Below, piece after piece: positions 4,143 through 32,800 of a stretch of DNA of 64,000 nt (its first letter is position 1; every line of letters starts with the position of its first letter). Source of the DNA: a virus; IMG/VR virus record IMGVR_UViG_3300032313_001394, positions 75,244 through 139,243 of that record; one strand, 5' to 3'. The translations under genes were made by a program, and so were the position numbers. The notes beneath the pieces are model-generated. The model did not search any database, was not told the DNA's origin, and was given only the letters and a program-made list of their open reading frames with translations.

Positions 4143-4513
4143 CTGATAGTTGGTTTTGTAATTGACGTATTTCTAATTGTAACATTTTATATTCATTTGA
4201 GCGTAGTCCATCTTTACTCGACAACAATATTATTGTTGACTGATTGTGTAAATTCATCAGTTGAGTAATTATAGTATTTGTTTCCACTGCTCATATTATA
4301 TACACATATAAATATAATGGGACATATCTCTATGTCCCTTATGTTTTACTTGATATAATTTATCTCGTTTACCTTTACCTGTTCGTTGTGTTGTCATTCT
4401 GGATATGATATGACAACTTTCACCTATTGATAGTGGTTCCGGTTTAAATTGAGATAATATTTCTGCGAATGTTAATTTGTTATTTTTCATATCTTAAAGA
4501 TAATAAGGAAATC

Positions 4514-30238: not shown

Positions 30239-30405
30239 AATTAATTACCTGGTATATTATATTTTTCATGAATATGATTAAGAAATTTTAATTTATCAAT
30301 CGTATCTTCTAATATAGCGATCTTTTCTTTTAGTAAAGCGTTTTCTTCTAAAGCGCGTTCTAATTGTAATTTTACTGTCTTTACTGTCATAACATTTATT
30401 TTAAG

Positions 30406-30480
30406 TGGACCAGGTAGGGATCGAACCTACGACCTACTGATTATGAGTCAGTTGCTACTAACCTACTGAGCTACAAGTCC
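30406..30480 (-). tRNA. tRNA with CAT anticodon (likely Ile2, possibly Met)
   Basis: GGACTTG acceptor, ACTGA-CTCATAA-TCAGT anticodon arm, GTAGG-TTCGATC-CCTAC T arm, A73; no encoded CCA. Confidence 0.9.
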
Positions 30481-30485
30481 AAAAT

Positions 30486-30605
30486 TAGAGGTTTAACACT
30501 AGGATTGCCTCCATCCTATCCAACCAACGATTTGGCCCAATTCCTAAGCGAGCAGATCTTACGGTATGCCGGTGGTGTCTTCGATCTAGTCGCGCACTAG
30601 CGTCT
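30486..30605 (-). ncRNA. candidate structured ncRNA between two tRNA genes
   Basis: GC-enriched intergenic stretch with hairpins CTAGT/ACTAG, CGG-CATA-CCG and TAGGAT/ATCCTA. Confidence 0.45.
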
Positions 30606-30606
30606 G

Positions 30607-30748
30607 CTGTAGTGGGTGGAGTCGAACCACCAAGAGGCAATTAGGTTAAGGACATTGCTAGCTTGTGGTCAACCCATTATCCTTACTTTATTTTGTTATC
30701 CTCGCCCCCGAGACAGGAGGGTGCGTCTGCCAATTTCGCCACGCTACA
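30607..30748 (-). ncRNA. tRNA-Asp(GTC)-like RNA with a 73-nt expanded variable region
   Basis: Acceptor TGTAGCG/CACTACA-G, D arm GGCGAAATTGGCAGACGC, anticodon arm CCCTC-CTGTCTC-GGGGG, T arm GGTGG-TTCGACT-CCACC. Confidence 0.8.
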
Positions 30749-30753
30749 ATCTT

Positions 30754-31173
30754 TTACTCTAAATCTAATTCTAATTGATTAGCCGTATAATTTACAGTAC
30801 TTCCACTTACATGCCCATATGCGGTTGAAGTTGTTGTTAAAGTAAATGGTGGTTGCGCTCTTGTTACACTTAAATTCTGTATGAAATCATCTGTTACAAT
30901 AACACCACTACCACTAGTAGTACCACTACCATAAGTTACTTTAGTGTCTGTTTTACCTGCTTTATATGGATTTACATAATGTGGGCGTTGCCAATTTGGT
31001 GCAGTATCAGGAACAACCCATCCACCTTCACCAATAGGTGAACCAAAATCAGGACAGTCTTTAATTTTATCCAATTCCGAAACAATGGTTTCCCATTGCT
31101 TCGGTGTTGGTCCTTCTTCATTAACTGCTTTAACAAAACCTTTAAGCCAATAAATAAATTGCTCCTTATTCAT
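30754..31173 (-). CDS. hypothetical protein
   Basis: EQFIYWLKGF N-terminus followed by a low-complexity T/G/P tail. Confidence 0.7.
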   Translation of the reverse strand: MNKEQFIYWLKGFVKAVNEEGPTPKQWETIVSELDKIKDCPDFGSPIGEGGWVVPDTAPNWQRPHYVNPYKAGKTDTKVTYGSGTTSGSGVIVTDDFIQNLSVTRAQPPFTLTTTSTAYGHVSGSTVNYTANQLELDLE

Positions 31174-32800
31174 ACATTCCTGGTCCATAATTCATTGCTG
31201 AATTATCATTTTTTTCTTTTTCAGGCTCTTCATATACAATTGCCTCTGTAATAAGTATTGTACCTGCAACTGATACTGCATTCTCTAATGCTAAACGAGT
31301 AACTTTTGTTGGATCAATAATACCGTTTTCAACTAAATTAACAATTGATTTTGATTTTAAATCATAACCATTTGTTGTTTCAGATAATACAACTGAATTA
31401 GCTAACATCCATGTTTCTGTTTCTTCGTACCCAGCATTAGTTAGAATTTTAATAAATGGGGCTAAACAGGCTTTACGAACAATTTGACGACCTAATTCTA
31501 AGTTTGCTGTTTCGTATTCTGTATCTAATTTTTTACGAGCATGTAATAATGCTGATCCACCTCCTGCTACAATACCTTCTTGTAAAGCTGCTTTAGTTGC
31601 ATGTAATGCATCATCAACCCGATCCTTTTTCTCTTTCATTTCAACCTCAGTTGGAGCACCGATATTGATAATTGCTACTCCACCTGTTAATTTACCTAAA
31701 CGTTCTTGTAATTTTTCACGTTCAAAGAATGAAGTTGCTTTATCGATTTGAGATTTTAATTCTTCAATACGAGACTCAATTGATTCTTTTCCACCTTTAC
31801 CATCTACAATTGTAGTTGTTTCTTTAGCTACTGTAACTAAACGAGCAGTTCCTAACCAATCTGAATTAAATTTATCTAAACGCATTCCTTTTTCAGGCGA
31901 TACTACTGTTCCACCTGTTAAAACAGCAATATCTTCTAAGATATGTAAACGACGATCTCCAAAATCAGGTGCTTTAACAGCACATACTTTTAAAATCTGT
32001 CTCATTTTATTTACTAATAAAGTAGATAAAGCTTCACCATCAATATCTTCTGCAATAATCAATAATGGAGAACTTGCTTGTGAACAACCTTCAAGTAATG
32101 GTAATAAATCTTTAACGGCAGTTAAACGACCATTAAAAATTAAAATTTTAGGATCGTTCAATGTACAAGTCATAGCATCATTATTTGTAACGAAATACAT
32201 CGACTTATAACCTTTATCAAACTGAATACCTTCAACAATATCTAAACTAGTTTCACCAATTTTACTTTCTTCAACAGTTACTACCCCATCAGCACCTACT
32301 GCTTTCATTGCTTCAGAAATTAATGTACCAATTTCTTTATCACCATTTGCTGAAATAACAGCTACTTGATGAATTTGATCATCTGAAGTAATATCTTGTG
32401 ATATTTCTTTTAGATTATCGATAACTTCTTTAGCTGCTTTTTCAATACCACGTTTTACTTCTACTGCATTTGAACCAGCTTTAATAGCATTAAAACCATA
32501 TTCAACCATCTCAGAGGCAAGTAAAGTAGTAGTTGTAGTACCGTCACCAGCTAAGTCAGCTGTTTTAATTGCTGCTTGTTTTAAAATTTGAGCACCAACA
32601 TTCTCGATTGGATCTTTTAATGAGATAGATTTTGCAACCGTAACTCCATCTTTTGTTGATGTTGGATTACCACCTTGGTTTTCAATAATTACATTACGAC
32701 CATTTGGTCCTAATGTAGCCGTAACTGCGTCAGATAATTTTTTGACACCTTTTAATAAGCTGGTCTTTGCTTCTTGATTAAATACAATCTGTTTATTCAT
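31166..32800 (-). CDS. groEL: chaperonin GroEL
   Basis: TLGPNGRNV, TKDGVTVAK, AGDGTTT, KAPDFGDRR, GIIDPTKV. Confidence 0.97.
   Translation of the reverse strand: MNKQIVFNQEAKTSLLKGVKKLSDAVTATLGPNGRNVIIENQGGNPTSTKDGVTVAKSISLKDPIENVGAQILKQAAIKTADLAGDGTTTTTLLASEMVEYGFNAIKAGSNAVEVKRGIEKAAKEVIDNLKEISQDITSDDQIHQVAVISANGDKEIGTLISEAMKAVGADGVVTVEESKIGETSLDIVEGIQFDKGYKSMYFVTNNDAMTCTLNDPKILIFNGRLTAVKDLLPLLEGCSQASSPLLIIAEDIDGEALSTLLVNKMRQILKVCAVKAPDFGDRRLHILEDIAVLTGGTVVSPEKGMRLDKFNSDWLGTARLVTVAKETTTIVDGKGGKESIESRIEELKSQIDKATSFFEREKLQERLGKLTGGVAIINIGAPTEVEMKEKKDRVDDALHATKAALQEGIVAGGGSALLHARKKLDTEYETANLELGRQIVRKACLAPFIKILTNAGYEETETWMLANSVVLSETTNGYDLKSKSIVNLVENGIIDPTKVTRLALENAVSVAGTILITEAIVYEEPEKEKNDNSAMNYGPGMYE

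What the first reader, a model, noticed from the sequence alone, without database searches (positions are those of the whole stretch)
30607..30748. 142-nt tRNA-Asp-like RNA with a 73-nt multi-helix variable arm
Seen: intact acceptor, Leu-type D arm, T arm and GUC anticodon (30712-30714), with C38 and G73 but an abnormal U37. The variable region (30632-30704) folds as GAGG/CCTC, then TAAGGATA/TGTCCTTA, capped by small hairpins. Known: G34-U35-C36, C38 and G73 are AspRS identity elements; U33-G34-U35 is the TGT/queuosine target; normal variable arms are about 4-24 nt. Inference: a new tRNA-derived ncRNA class that may be aspartylated but ribosome-incompetent. It could be a decoy for anticodon nucleases, an Asp donor for non-ribosomal transfer, or a substrate for the phage preQ0/TGT-like system.
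Basis: partly seen in the sequence, partly recalled or inferred. Interest (0 to 1): 0.85.

Follow-up and report, generated by a model that had tools for sequence, protein, structure and literature searches.

The report
Phage copy of giant-armed tRNA-like RNA
This phage carries a real 142-base RNA gene shaped like an aspartate tRNA with a 73-base folded side arm; it belongs to a large, uncatalogued RNA family shared by Bacteroidota bacteria and their phages, and its job is still unknown.

Summary
On the minus strand (30748->30607) lies a complete 7/5 cloverleaf with a class II (Leu-like) D arm, the loop CUGUCUC, G73 and a 73-nt variable arm. ARAGORN and Rfam 15 miss it. It is not a decayed tRNA. 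A covariance model built here finds 99 distinct full-length relatives in viral and metagenome contigs: 98.2% of cells pair, and 27 of 32 pairs show compensatory change. The window copy matches all 39 near-invariant columns.

The family is not phage-born. The model also hits 102 of 120 fetched bacterial loci, all Bacteroidota chromosomes. These copies are often tandem, and 59 of 98 sit beside a divergent Lrp/AsnC gene. Canonical tRNA-Asp coexists with them.

U35, C36, pyrimidine-37, C38 and G73 are conserved. G34 is invariant in the 99 aligned viral and metagenome copies but is U or A in some bacterial paralogs. U33 is relaxed.

My best reading (about 0.4) is an RNA processed like a tRNA, probably charged by AspRS, with the arm serving as a handle for a partner and not used for routine decoding. 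Charging and expression are untested. The TGT idea is not supported across the family. I found the family in neither Rfam nor the papers searched. This scan has noted it before on other DNA.

The parts
30607..30748 (-). Whole tRNA-like RNA gene (142 nt, 5' end at 30748, G73 at 30607)
   Evidence: Sequence read. Model R1 scores it 161 bits, though it is one of the 8 seed sequences. It matches 39 of 39 columns that are >=95% conserved among the other 98 members.
30742..30748 (-). Acceptor stem, 5' strand (UGUAGCG); U1-A72, G2-C71, U3-A70
   Evidence: All 7 acceptor pairs show changes on both sides across 99 members. The window is the one member of 99 with a non-pair at 6-67.
30608..30614 (-). 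Acceptor stem, 3' strand (CACUACA); followed by G73 at 30607, then C at 30606, no CCA
   Evidence: G73 in 98 of 98 aligned members and in 180 of 181 parsed members. Among the 181 parsed members, all 69 viral and 13 metagenome members and all but one of the bacterial members tallied in the printed classes have C at position 74 (the bacterial tally printed only the 12 commonest classes, 94 of 98).
30723..30739 (-). D arm: 3-bp stem GCG/CGC and an 11-nt loop AAAUUGGCAGA (class II, Leu-like). The window has no D-loop hairpin insert.
   Evidence: A14, A15 and G12-C23 are invariant in 99 of 99. The D loop is 10-13 nt in 46 of 99 members and 20-38 nt in 53 of 99.
30705..30721 (-). Anticodon arm: stem CCCUC/GGGGG, loop CUGUCUC (G34 U35 C36 at 30712-30714, U37 at 30711, C38 at 30710)
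   Evidence: All 5 stem pairs covary. G34, U35 and C36 are present in 99 of 99; position 37 is U93/C5/A1; position 38 is C98/A1; position 33 is U80/C17/A2.
30632..30704 (-). Giant variable arm (73 nt)
   Evidence: The variable region is 24-101 nt long (median 79) across 99 members.
30700..30703 (-). Base helix of the variable arm, 5' strand GAGG, pairing with CCUC at 30634-30637
   Evidence: Of the 4 pairs, 3 change on both sides and 99.7% of cells pair.
30678..30685 (-). Inner helix of the variable arm, 5' strand UAAGGAUA, pairing with UGUCCUUA at 30647-30654. It closes with the near-invariant AUA/UGU, which includes a U.G pair.
   Evidence: 6 of 8 pairs change on both sides. The U.G pair is present in 94 of 95 and the A-U pair in 95 of 95.
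30665..30675 (-). Tip hairpin motif GGGUUGACCAC, read as a small stem with a UUGA loop and a bulged A
   Evidence: Each position is conserved in 81-95 of 99 members. One compensatory form is seen, in L088. The fold of the motif was read by eye and not tested.
30686..30699 (-). A-rich 5' strand of the asymmetric internal loop (AUAACAAAAUAAAG). It faces the 3' strand ACCUAAUUG at 30638-30646.
   Evidence: Several A and U positions are conserved in 85-96 of 99 members, and two adjacent A positions of the 3' strand in 96 of 99 each, the U that follows in 82 of 99. Its role is unknown.
30615..30631 (-). T arm: stem GGUGG/CCACC, loop UUCGACU
   Evidence: UUCGA is invariant in 99 of 99, and 4 of 5 stem pairs covary.
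30405..30480 (-). Canonical tRNA-Met(CAU), 126 nt downstream on the same strand (context)
   Evidence: ARAGORN and Rfam RF00005 at 61.1 bits. The same pairing of this RNA with a downstream tRNA-Met is seen in L002, L004, L005, L086, L088 and L090.

Best explanation
Identity (near certain, about 0.95): 30607-30748(-) is a functional gene for one member of a large family of tRNA-shaped RNAs. The family has these features:
- A standard 7/5 acceptor/T branch.
- A class II, Leu-like D arm.
- An anticodon-type loop with invariant U35 C36 Y37 C38. G34 is present in all 99 aligned viral and metagenome copies.
- G73-C74.
- A variable arm enlarged to 24-101 nt in the 99 aligned viral and metagenome members; bacterial members as long as 212 nt imply still longer arms. 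It carries its own conserved helices and a conserved tip motif.

The family lives in the chromosomes of Bacteroidota (Chitinophagales, Cytophagales and Saprospiraceae-type lineages). Phages of these bacteria have picked it up, and this phage's copy sits 5 nt after a small ORF and 126 nt upstream of its tRNA-Met.

Mechanism (inferred, about 0.4):
- The RNA is cut out and CCA-tailed by the ordinary tRNA machinery.
- It is recognised by aspartyl-tRNA synthetase through G73, G34, U35, C36 and C38.
- It is not used for routine decoding, because of pyrimidine 37, the relaxed position 33 and the bulky arm.
- The giant arm serves as a docking handle for a still unknown partner. The RNA would then act as an off-ribosome aminoacyl carrier or adaptor.
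- The phage carries its own copy, as it does tRNAs and in some relatives tmRNA, to keep this host function supplied during infection.

Shown: the structure, conservation, distribution and coexistence with canonical tRNA-Asp. Inferred: processing, charging, the lack of decoding, and the partner. The confidence number given with this explanation (0.4) is for the mechanism; the identity alone I put at about 0.95.
For: - Structure: 98.2% of cells pair and 27 of 32 pairs are compensatory on 99 distinct members. The window matches 39 of 39 near-invariant columns.
- tRNA core: U8, G9, A14, A15 and T-loop UUCGA are invariant in 99 of 99. G73 is present in 180 of 181 members and C74 nearly always.
- Asp determinants: the five strong ones per PMC9976931 (passages) are G73, G34, U35, C36 and C38. 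All five are in the window, and each is present in 98-99 of 99 aligned members.
- Signs against routine decoding: position 37 is a pyrimidine in 98 of 99, in 46 of 49 members collected without regard to the loop, and in 16 of 16 bacterial copies found by model only. In 378 canonical tRNAs from the same loci, 354 have a purine there. U33 is present in 30 of 49 members against 359 of 378 canonical tRNAs.
- Not the only Asp tRNA: matches with the form of a canonical tRNA-Asp 3' half in 5 of 5 host genomes, of which three loci from two genomes were confirmed by ARAGORN. It is also present in 5 of 5 phage arrays with 23 or more tRNAs that also hold this RNA.
- The arm as a functional module: it has a conserved tip motif, an invariant U.G pair and an A-rich loop.
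- Host origin: model hits in 102 of 120 bacterial loci. The window copy is 79.6% identical over 147 nt to a Chitinophagaceae copy.
Against: - No expression or charging data. No RNA run holds the stretch.
- U1-A72 in 95 of 98 members, whereas G1-C72 is described as strictly conserved and crucial in bacterial tRNA-Asp (PMC9976931).
- G10 is present in only 58 of 99 members.
- Some bacterial paralogs carry A34 or U34 and G33: loops CGAUCUC, CGUUCUC and CUUUCUC. AspRS should reject these, so the invariant core is UCYC, not GUC.
- U33 is kept in 93 of 98 pattern-found bacterial copies and 12 of 16 model-found ones. This fits a decoder.
- As I recall, class II synthetases such as AspRS approach tRNA from the variable-arm side, so the arm might clash. 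No call tested this.
- No partner protein was identified. The phage record encodes no AspRS-type or SerRS-type enzyme.
- ARAGORN calls the 93-nt short forms plain tRNA-Asp.
Confidence: 0.4

Rival explanations
1. It is a genuine decoding tRNA. On this view it is a specialised tRNA-Asp isoacceptor, with rare Glu-type paralogs, that reads GAN codons on the ribosome despite its giant arm. The arm would add regulation or recruit a factor.
For: - It lies in phage tRNA arrays next to normal tRNAs and tmRNA.
- All tertiary-core nucleotides of elongator tRNAs are invariant.
- Where position 34 varies in paralogs, the triplet stays in the GAN box (GUC, UUC, AUC) with U35 and C36 fixed.
- U33 is kept in 93 of 98 pattern-found bacterial copies.
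- ARAGORN calls the 93-nt forms tRNA-Asp in 4 of 4 loci.
- Engineered tRNAs with hairpin aptamers on the variable arm stay translationally active (PMC7590224, passages).
- 13 of 21 phage loci with this RNA and 8 or more tRNAs show no canonical Asp within the fetched stretch.
Against: - Pyrimidine 37 in 98 of 99 members, against purine in 354 of 378 canonical tRNAs.
- C, A or G at position 33 in many members.
- Canonical tRNA-Asp is present beside it in hosts and in the largest phage arrays.
- A roughly 50-nt aptamer placed in the variable loop left only marginal tRNA activity (PMC7590224). Arms here reach 101 nt in the 99 aligned members, and bacterial members of up to 212 nt imply longer ones.
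Confidence: 0.25
2. It is an uncharged mimic. On this view it is a decoy, sponge or regulator that binds a protein which reads the tRNA-Asp anticodon loop, such as AspRS itself, an anticodon nuclease or toxin, or a modification enzyme. It could also be a sensor tied to the neighbouring Lrp/AsnC regulator in bacteria.
For: - The loop's 3' half UCYC, G73 and the arm motifs are conserved, while features needed for decoding are relaxed.
- A divergent Lrp/AsnC gene lies 124-315 nt upstream in 59 of 98 bacterial loci.
- Phages often carry tRNA variants. That these counter tRNA-targeting defences is recalled, not tested here.
Against: - The conserved G73-C74 and the perfect acceptor/T minihelix point to a CCA end and to use of the 3' end.
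- The RNA sits at a conserved chromosomal position in the bacteria themselves, here with a Bacteroidota-type promoter motif within 60 nt upstream in 35 of 97 copies. That makes a purely anti-defence role unlikely for the host copies.
- No nuclease or toxin gene was found linked.
Confidence: 0.2
3. It is charged with serine by SerRS through its long variable arm and G73, like the allo-tRNAs. It would then be a missense tRNA or a seryl carrier.
For: - G73, G2-C71, a large variable region and mostly R4-Y69 match part of the bacterial Ser identity set (PMC9976931).
- Allo-tRNAs often carry GUC (PMC5389517, passage).
- An earlier unchecked note of this scan reports a member next to a phage serS gene.
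Against: - A72 stands where the Ser set has C72, the 30-40 pair is never the G-C of the Ser set, and C11-G24 is present in only 48 of 99.
- The arm's base helix is only 4 bp and is followed by a large asymmetric loop. A single bulge in the variable stem stopped SerRS charging of allo-tRNAs (PMC7590224).
- The branch is 7/5, not 8/4 or 9/3.
- No PF00587-type enzyme is encoded in this phage record.
Confidence: 0.05
4. The 73-nt insert is an intron or mobile insertion. It would be removed to give a normal-sized tRNA.
For: Short members exist, at 93 nt in phages and 109-121 nt in bacteria.
Against: - The insert covaries as a folded domain joined to the tRNA by a conserved 4-bp helix.
- Removing it would leave no variable loop.
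- It lies outside the anticodon loop and is far shorter than group I introns, and Rfam reports no intron.
- The short members still have a class II arm of about 21 nt or more.
- ARAGORN with introns allowed finds nothing at default stringency.
Confidence: 0.03
5. It is a decayed pseudo-tRNA or a chance cloverleaf.
For: - The window copy has a C6.A67 mismatch.
- The single-sequence fold energy is not exceptional.
- Standard finders miss it.
Against: - 99 distinct relatives with compensatory changes in 27 of 32 pairs.
- 39 of 39 near-invariant columns are kept in the window copy.
- The family is present in 102 bacterial loci.
Confidence: 0.01

Closest known systems
Class II elongator tRNAs (bacterial tRNA-Leu, tRNA-Tyr, tRNA-Ser; Rfam RF00005)
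   Same: - 7-bp acceptor and 5-bp T stem.
- U8, A14, G18G19 and T loop UUCGA.
- 3-bp D stem with a long D loop.
- A helical variable arm that starts one base after the anticodon stem.

Model R1's best non-member hits are 80-86-nt tRNAs: tRNA-Tyr at 39.5 bits, tRNA-Leu at 39.3 bits, and 82-86-nt hits at about 48-56 bits in many Bacteroidota genomes.
   Different: - The arm is 24-101 nt in the 99 aligned members (longer in some bacterial copies), against about 13-21 nt as I recall for class II tRNAs. It has two helices, an internal loop and a conserved tip.
- The triplet is GUC, not a Leu, Ser or Tyr anticodon.
- Position 37 is a pyrimidine.
- About half the members carry a hairpin inside the D loop.
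- RF00005 and ARAGORN do not detect the window copy.
Bacterial tRNA-Asp(GUC)
   Same: G73, G34, U35, C36 and C38, the five strong Asp determinants (PMC9976931). The loop differs from the phage and host canonical tRNA-Asp loop CUGUCAC only at position 37.
   Different: - Class II body, where tRNA-Asp is class I.
- U1-A72 instead of G1-C72.
- U37 instead of A37.
- G10 is not conserved.
- It coexists with a canonical 75-77-nt tRNA-Asp.
Allo-tRNAs (Mukai et al. 2017, PMC5389517; abstract and passages seen)
   Same: Natural non-canonical tRNAs of bacteria and phages with a long variable arm and anticodons that do not fit their body. GUC is among the predominant ones.
   Different: - Allo-tRNAs have an 8/4 or 9/3 acceptor/T branch, ordinary-length arms and many different anticodons.
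- This family is 7/5, with a giant arm and a fixed UCYC loop.
- The word Bacteroidetes does not occur in the main text of that paper. Its supplements were not seen.
Phage T4 rnaC (species 1 RNA, 139 nt) and rnaD
   Same: A phage-encoded stable RNA of about 140 nt inside the tRNA gene cluster, with a tRNA-like acceptor stem and a GGUUCGAAUCC T arm. Its function is still unknown (PMC3014915, passage).
   Different: No sequence or model homology: R1 gives 14.6 bits at E 0.63. By eye, rnaC has no D arm or anticodon arm but two long hairpins in their place. No host counterpart is known to me.
Engineered tRNAs tagged with an aptamer on the variable arm (Mukai 2020, PMC7590224; abstract and passages seen)
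   Same: The variable arm is used as a handle that recruits or sequesters a protein while the tRNA body stays intact. This is the working principle I propose for the natural arm.
   Different: These are man-made, with small hairpins on an allo-tRNA chassis, and their partners are known.

Membership tests
Giant-armed GUC tRNA-like RNA family of Bacteroidota and their phages (defined here by model R1; no Rfam accession) | Full-length match to the covariance model (acceptor, D, anticodon, two variable-arm helices, T arm) | tested here: met
   161 bits, model positions 1-149. The window is one of the 8 seed sequences, so the score is partly circular. Independent members score 63.7-164.5 bits.
Giant-armed GUC tRNA-like RNA family of Bacteroidota and their phages (defined here by model R1; no Rfam accession) | Near-invariant nucleotides: U8 G9, A14 A15, U35 C36 Y37 C38, variable-arm AUA/UGU closure, tip GGGUWGACCAC, UUCGA, G73 | tested here: met
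   The window agrees at 39 of 39 columns that are >=95% conserved in the other 98 members.
Canonical elongator tRNA (Rfam RF00005 / ARAGORN) | Detected by the RF00005 model or by ARAGORN | tested here: not met
   No hit at gathering score or at E<=10. No ARAGORN call with default settings or with introns allowed.
Canonical elongator tRNA (Rfam RF00005 / ARAGORN) | Purine at position 37 and U at position 33 | tested here: not met
   The window has U33 but U37. In the family, position 37 is a pyrimidine in 98 of 99 and position 33 is U in 80 of 99. The control is 378 canonical tRNAs, with purine 37 in 354 and U33 in 359.
Canonical elongator tRNA (Rfam RF00005 / ARAGORN) | Cloverleaf with 7-bp acceptor, 5-bp T stem and conserved tertiary nucleotides | tested here: met
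Substrate of bacterial AspRS (tRNA-Asp identity) | G73, G34, U35, C36, C38 (strong determinants, PMC9976931) | tested here: met
   All five are present in the window and in 98-99 of 99 members. However, A34 or U34 occurs in 6 secondary bacterial copies.
Substrate of bacterial AspRS (tRNA-Asp identity) | G1-C72 and G2-C71 pairs; G10 | tested here: not met
   U1-A72 in the window and in 95 of 98 members. G2-C71 is met (97 of 98). G10 is present in the window but in only 58 of 99 members.
Substrate of bacterial AspRS (tRNA-Asp identity) | Actual aspartylation | not testable with these tools
   This needs in vitro charging or analysis of acylation in vivo.
Allo-tRNA (PMC5389517) | 12-bp acceptor branch arranged 8/4 or 9/3 | tested here: not met
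   7 acceptor pairs plus 5 T-stem pairs, with two bases (U8 G9) before the D stem.
tRNA with group I intron | An intron of roughly 200 nt or more in the anticodon loop, with the group I core | tested here: not met
   The insert is 73 nt and lies in the variable region. Rfam finds no intron family at E<=10.
tmRNA | tRNA-like domain plus a tag reading frame; detected by ARAGORN or Rfam | tested here: not met
   ARAGORN and Rfam find none at this place. They do find tmRNA in related phage loci L084 and L224.
T4 rnaC-type stable RNA | Sequence or structure homology to T4 species 1 RNA | tested here: not met
   R1 on the T4 locus gives 14.6 bits at E 0.63, over the T-arm region only.

The most novel reading that the evidence does not exclude
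Bacteroidota keep a second, non-decoding 'tRNA' whose giant variable arm docks a dedicated partner. The RNA would work as an off-ribosome aminoacyl carrier or as a tmRNA-like adaptor for acidic-codon (GAN) situations. Phages would copy it because their replication depends on it. That would make it a new functional class of tRNA-derived RNA with its own protein machinery.
Probability: 0.3. Interest if true: 0.85.

Novelty: new variant of a known kind. Interest (0 to 1): 0.7.

Why it matters
Natural tRNA-shaped RNAs that keep synthetase marks but drop decoding marks are rare. When understood, they have revealed new biology, such as tmRNA, cell-wall tRNAs and viral tRNA-like ends.

This family is large, with 181 distinct sequences parsed here. 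It is invisible to ARAGORN and Rfam at the sizes typical of the family. It sits at a conserved chromosomal position in several orders of Bacteroidota and has been captured repeatedly by their phages.

It offers three things:
- A testable natural example of a variable arm used as a functional domain.
- A marker for assigning uncultured phages to Bacteroidota hosts.
- A gap to close in tRNA and ncRNA annotation.

For this window specifically, it points to a Chitinophagaceae-like host. It also shows that the phage imports a host RNA of unknown function alongside its four tRNAs.

Tried and rejected
- Expression: the look-up of sequencing runs on window:29300-32800 listed 20 holders and no RNA holder. 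No expression test was therefore possible, and read laying was not used.

- GatCAB / asparagine platform. U1-A72 is, as I recall, a GatCAB mark, and together with an AsnC-type neighbour it suggested Asp-to-Asn conversion on this RNA. gatB and asnS are present in 5 of 5 carrier genomes. However, gatB is in 127 of 151 sampled Bacteroidota while the RNA is in only 14 of 151. There is no specific co-occurrence, so I dropped the idea to a remote speculation.

- Sole tRNA-Asp of the host: rejected.

- Replacement of tRNA-Asp in phage arrays: not supported. Both are present in 5 of 5 arrays with 23 or more tRNAs, and canonical Asp is present in 8 of 21 arrays with 8 or more tRNAs. The loci are partial views.

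- Anti-Shine-Dalgarno mimicry. The 5' strand of the anticodon stem contains CCUCC. The stem covaries freely (CCCAC, CCGUA, UCCGC), so that sequence is not constrained.

- T4 rnaC homology: rejected.

- Cultured phages. blastn of the window element and of a 170-nt member against 50,697 GenBank phage records found no match. The 701-nt query matched only through tRNA-Met.

- The 76 more distant GroEL-bearing phage loci L006-L081 hold no member.

- Pairing between the loop and the A-rich strand of the arm was looked at by eye only. No covariation is possible because the loop is invariant.

- Literature. Searches found no description of a Bacteroidota or phage tRNA-like RNA with such an arm. Supplements were closed and the library is open-access only, so absence from print is not proven.

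- My first tRNA-Asp pattern used a wrong gap and gave only chance-level matches. It was corrected.
Full report
WHAT IS THERE. The window is part of a 139-kb uncultured phage record. Its replication genes are distantly T4-like: clamp loader, GroEL and family B polymerase. The nearest cultured relative of the polymerase is only 34% identical.

The finding lies on the minus strand. Read 5'->3' from 30748 to 30607, it is a full cloverleaf:
- Acceptor UGUAGCG/CACUACA, with one C6.A67 mismatch.
- U8 G9.
- A 3-bp D stem with an 11-nt loop, the class II, Leu-like type.
- A26.
- Anticodon stem CCCUC/GGGGG with loop CUGUCUC.
- A 73-nt variable region (30704-30632).
- T arm GGUGG-UUCGACU-CCACC.
- G73.
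- No encoded CCA.

Standard tools do not see the gene. ARAGORN finds only four ordinary tRNAs in the window and in the whole record, and nothing here even with introns allowed. Rfam 15 gives no hit at E<=10. The minimum-energy fold of the single sequence is not exceptional (z -0.18).

IT IS CONSERVED AND IT COVARIES. The four closest GroEL relatives and four further viral contigs carry the same gene with the insert in place. That gives 8 distinct sequences of 142-161 nt.

With a hand-drawn structure on these 8 sequences, 96.1% of cells pair. When the partners are slid, 45-55% pair. Nine of 32 pairs change on both sides.

From this alignment I built the covariance model R1. The model plus three kinds of pattern scan gathered many more members. 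One scan was anchored on the anticodon arm and two on the tip of the variable arm.

R1 aligned 99 distinct full-length members from 100 source loci. On these:
- 98.2% of cells pair, against 44-56% when slid.
- 27 of 32 pairs change on both sides.
- None of 500 shuffles reaches any of the five measures.

This alignment was fitted to the model, so it leans towards the structure. The 8-sequence MAFFT alignment does not have that bias.

The window's copy agrees with the consensus at all 39 columns that are >=95% conserved in the other 98 members. Its only blemish is the C6.A67 mismatch, unique among the 99.

WHAT IS CONSERVED. The following are invariant or nearly so:
- U8, G9, G12-C23, A14, A15, and T-loop UUCGA.
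- G73 (98 of 98).
- U1-A72 (95 of 98) and G2-C71 (97 of 98).
- In the loop, G34, U35 and C36 (99 of 99 each), U37 (93; C 5; A 1) and C38 (98).

Position 33 is U in 80, C in 17 and A in 2 of the 99.

About half of those 99 were collected with a pattern that contained the loop. I therefore checked the 49 distinct members that came only from variable-arm-tip patterns. In these, position 33 is U30/C17/A2 and position 37 is U44/C2/A3. The parser in that script required GUC, but the raw candidates showed GUC in all intact members.

As a control, I took 378 distinct canonical tRNAs called by ARAGORN in the same loci. They have U33 in 359 and a purine at 37 in 354.

The variable arm has a fixed plan:
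- A 4-bp base helix, of which 3 pairs covary.
- An asymmetric A-rich internal loop.
- A 7-8-bp helix, of which 6 pairs covary. It closes with a near-invariant AUA/UGU that includes a U.G pair.
- A tip motif GGGU(A/U)GACCAC.
- Often one more, variable hairpin. The window copy lacks this extra hairpin.

The variable region ranges from 24 to 101 nt, with a median of 79. In 53 of 99 members the D loop also carries an inserted hairpin.

THE FAMILY IS BACTERIAL AS WELL. R1 confirms members in 68 of 80 and 34 of 40 of these loci.

By their record titles, all 102 confirmed loci are Bacteroidota. They include Chitinophaga, Saprospiraceae, Lewinellaceae, Cyclobacteriaceae, Cytophagaceae, Flammeovirga, Aquirufa, Ohtaekwangia, Spirosoma, Runella and Nibrella. 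The 18 loci without a model hit are Streptomyces, other Actinomycetota, Pseudomonas and Lichenihabitans, and I read them as chance pattern matches.

In an even sample of 151 Bacteroidota genomes, R1 finds true members (more than 60 bits, more than 100 nt) in 14.

The bacterial copies have these properties:
- They are often tandem, for example five copies at a 197-nt period in Flammeovirga pacifica.
- ARAGORN called no tRNA in the 23 of these loci scanned, and Rfam (gathering scores) no family in the 4 scanned.
- 35 of 97 have the Bacteroidota -7 promoter motif TAnnTTTG within 60 nt upstream, most often 35 nt before the mature 5' end. That this motif is the Bacteroidota promoter element is recalled.
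- In 59 of 98 loci a divergently oriented Lrp/AsnC-family gene lies 124-315 nt upstream. Nine loci have no room upstream, and 30 have none, mostly Saprospiraceae and Flammeovirga.

The window copy is 79.6% identical over 147 nt to the copy of a Chitinophagaceae genome. This argues for capture from a host and for a host of that kind.

IT IS NOT THE ONLY ASP tRNA. All five carrier genomes examined also hold canonical tRNA-Asp genes. One search found them, and ARAGORN confirms three loci as 75-77-nt tRNA-Asp.

In phages, L084 carries 25 tRNAs, a tmRNA, a canonical tRNA-Asp and the giant RNA. Among 21 distinct phage loci with a member and 8 or more tRNAs, canonical Asp is present in 8, including all 5 arrays with 23 or more tRNAs. 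These loci are partial views of the contigs.

This phage record is 84% complete. It has no canonical tRNA-Asp and no AspRS-type or SerRS-type enzyme.

RESULTS THAT COMPLICATE THE 'ASP' READING. Sixteen bacterial copies were found by model alone, so they are unbiased at the loop. Their loops are UUGUCUC (6), CUGUCUC (3), UCGUCUC (2), CUGUCCC, UUGUCCC and CGGUCUC (1 each), and CUUUCUC (2), which is a UUC triplet.

Secondary, shorter copies lie next to primary ones in Cyclobacteriaceae-type genomes. They carry CGAUCUC (3 loci), CGUUCUC and CGGUCUC.

The strictly conserved core is therefore U35 C36 Y37 C38. G34 is fixed in all viral and metagenome members aligned here and in primary bacterial copies, but not in paralogs. 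Where position 34 varies, the triplet stays within the GAN (Asp/Glu) box.

U33 is kept in 93 of 98 pattern-found bacterial copies. The relaxation at position 33 is thus mainly a phage feature.

The 93-nt phage short forms are called tRNA-Asp by ARAGORN in 4 of 4 loci. No tRNA was called in the nine loci holding the 112-121-nt bacterial short forms.

HOW IT MOST LIKELY WORKS. The perfect acceptor/T minihelix, G73-C74 and the position inside tRNA arrays suggest ordinary tRNA processing. By that I mean release by RNase P and 3' trimming, followed by CCA addition. This is inferred.

The conserved loop positions coincide with the strong aspartate determinants G73, G34, U35, C36 and C38 (PMC9976931, passages). 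The positions that decoding needs, U33 and purine 37, are not kept. A canonical tRNA-Asp is present alongside. The arm carries sequence-specific conserved motifs, as a binding site would.

I therefore favour, at about 0.4, an RNA charged by AspRS that serves off the normal decoding path, with the arm as a handle for an unknown partner.

Against this stand:
- U1-A72, where bacterial tRNA-Asp has the crucial G1-C72.
- The variable G10.
- The paralogs with A34 or U34.
- The recalled geometry of class II synthetases, which approach tRNA from the variable-arm side.
- The lack of any identified partner.

The main rival, at 0.25, is a true specialised decoder of GAN codons. Supporting it, engineered tRNAs tolerate hairpin aptamers on the arm. 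Against it, an aptamer inserted into the variable loop (about 50 nt as I recall) left only marginal activity (PMC7590224).

An uncharged mimic or regulator comes next, at 0.2. Serylation in the manner of allo-tRNAs is unlikely (0.05), for three reasons:
- The identity set fits poorly.
- The 4-bp base helix is followed by a large loop, and a single bulge blocked SerRS in allo-tRNAs.
- The triplet is fixed.

Splicing of the insert (0.03) and decay (0.01) are contradicted by the covariation.

COMPARISON WITH WHAT IS KNOWN. The body is that of a class II tRNA, and the loop is that of tRNA-Asp apart from position 37.

The nearest things in print that I could find are these:
- Allo-tRNAs (PMC5389517). 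They have long arms and often GUC, but an 8/4 or 9/3 branch, normal arm sizes and diverse anticodons, and Bacteroidetes does not occur in the main text.
- T4 species 1 RNA (rnaC). It is a 139-nt phage RNA with a tRNA-like acceptor and T arm and unknown function, and it is not homologous.

Rfam 15 has no family for this RNA. Seven full-text searches found no description. Supplements were closed and subscription journals are not covered.

EARLIER NOTES OF THIS SCAN. The same family has been noted many times on other DNA: 61 notes in at least 48 genomes. Those notes gave me the allo-tRNA paper. They also warned that an 'asparagine platform' story had failed a check. My own test, run before I saw them, agrees: gatB is present in 127 of 151 sampled genomes, against 14 of 151 for the RNA. 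A note that the RNA is highly expressed in another genome could not be checked here.

VERDICT.

This is a real phage copy of a widespread, uncatalogued, host-derived tRNA-like RNA. Its structure is well supported and its function is open. I rate it a new variant of a known kind (non-canonical class II tRNA or tRNA-like RNA), with interest 0.7.

Noticed in passing
window 30481-30606 (-): The 126-nt GC-rich spacer between the giant RNA and tRNA-Met is 92% identical to L004:7311-7436. That is more conserved than the giant RNA itself between the same two phages (75%). In L004 it sits about 250 nt further from the RNA. L088 has no such spacer: its RNA and tRNA-Met are 4 nt apart. The predicted fold is -30.8 kcal/mol, and Rfam finds no match at E<=10. 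Two earlier notes of the scan also flag it.
   Followed up: partly
L224:11178-11262(-) and L179:2233-2317(-): An 85-nt class II-bodied tRNA that ARAGORN calls tRNA-Gly(UCC). It lies in the same phage arrays and is the best non-member hit of model R1 (48.6-49.2 bits). It has a Leu-like D arm and an odd anticodon loop. It may be a short relative of the family or another non-canonical phage tRNA.
   Followed up: partly
L629 (two copies), L501:4017-4134, L544:6709-6824, L524:3537-3654, L562:5461-5579, L481:7366-7524: Secondary bacterial copies, all but one (159 nt) short at 109-119 nt, whose loop reads CUUUCUC, CGAUCUC, CGUUCUC or CGGUCUC. The triplets are UUC, AUC or GUC, often with G33. They lie next to a primary GUC copy.
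   Followed up: partly
L084:1363-1749 and L224:4532-4940: Related phage contigs that carry the giant RNA also encode a tmRNA and 10-25 tRNAs in the fetched stretch.
   Followed up: no
L443 (minus strand, about 4159-4370): A viral member with an intact variable arm, T arm and 3' acceptor strand, but with its 5' half replaced by unrelated sequence. It is the only one of 100 source loci that R1 did not match at E<=1e-12.
   Followed up: no
window 30754-31188 (-): A 144-aa ORF ends 5 nt before the 5' end of the RNA. It matches only PHROGs of unknown function (phrog_28500, E 6.5e-07). A TAGATTTA motif, which resembles the Bacteroidota -7 promoter element, lies at 30760-30767, inside the end of this ORF and 11 nt before the RNA.
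   Followed up: no
L515, L469, L499, L518, L548, L484, L482, L532 (bacterial loci): The Lrp/AsnC-family gene that diverges from the RNA gene is followed, in the three loci where the next gene was checked by Pfam or by size (L515, L499, L482), by sufB of the Fe-S assembly operon. Downstream neighbours vary: peroxiredoxin, a TrmB-like methyltransferase, an AMP-binding enzyme.
   Followed up: partly
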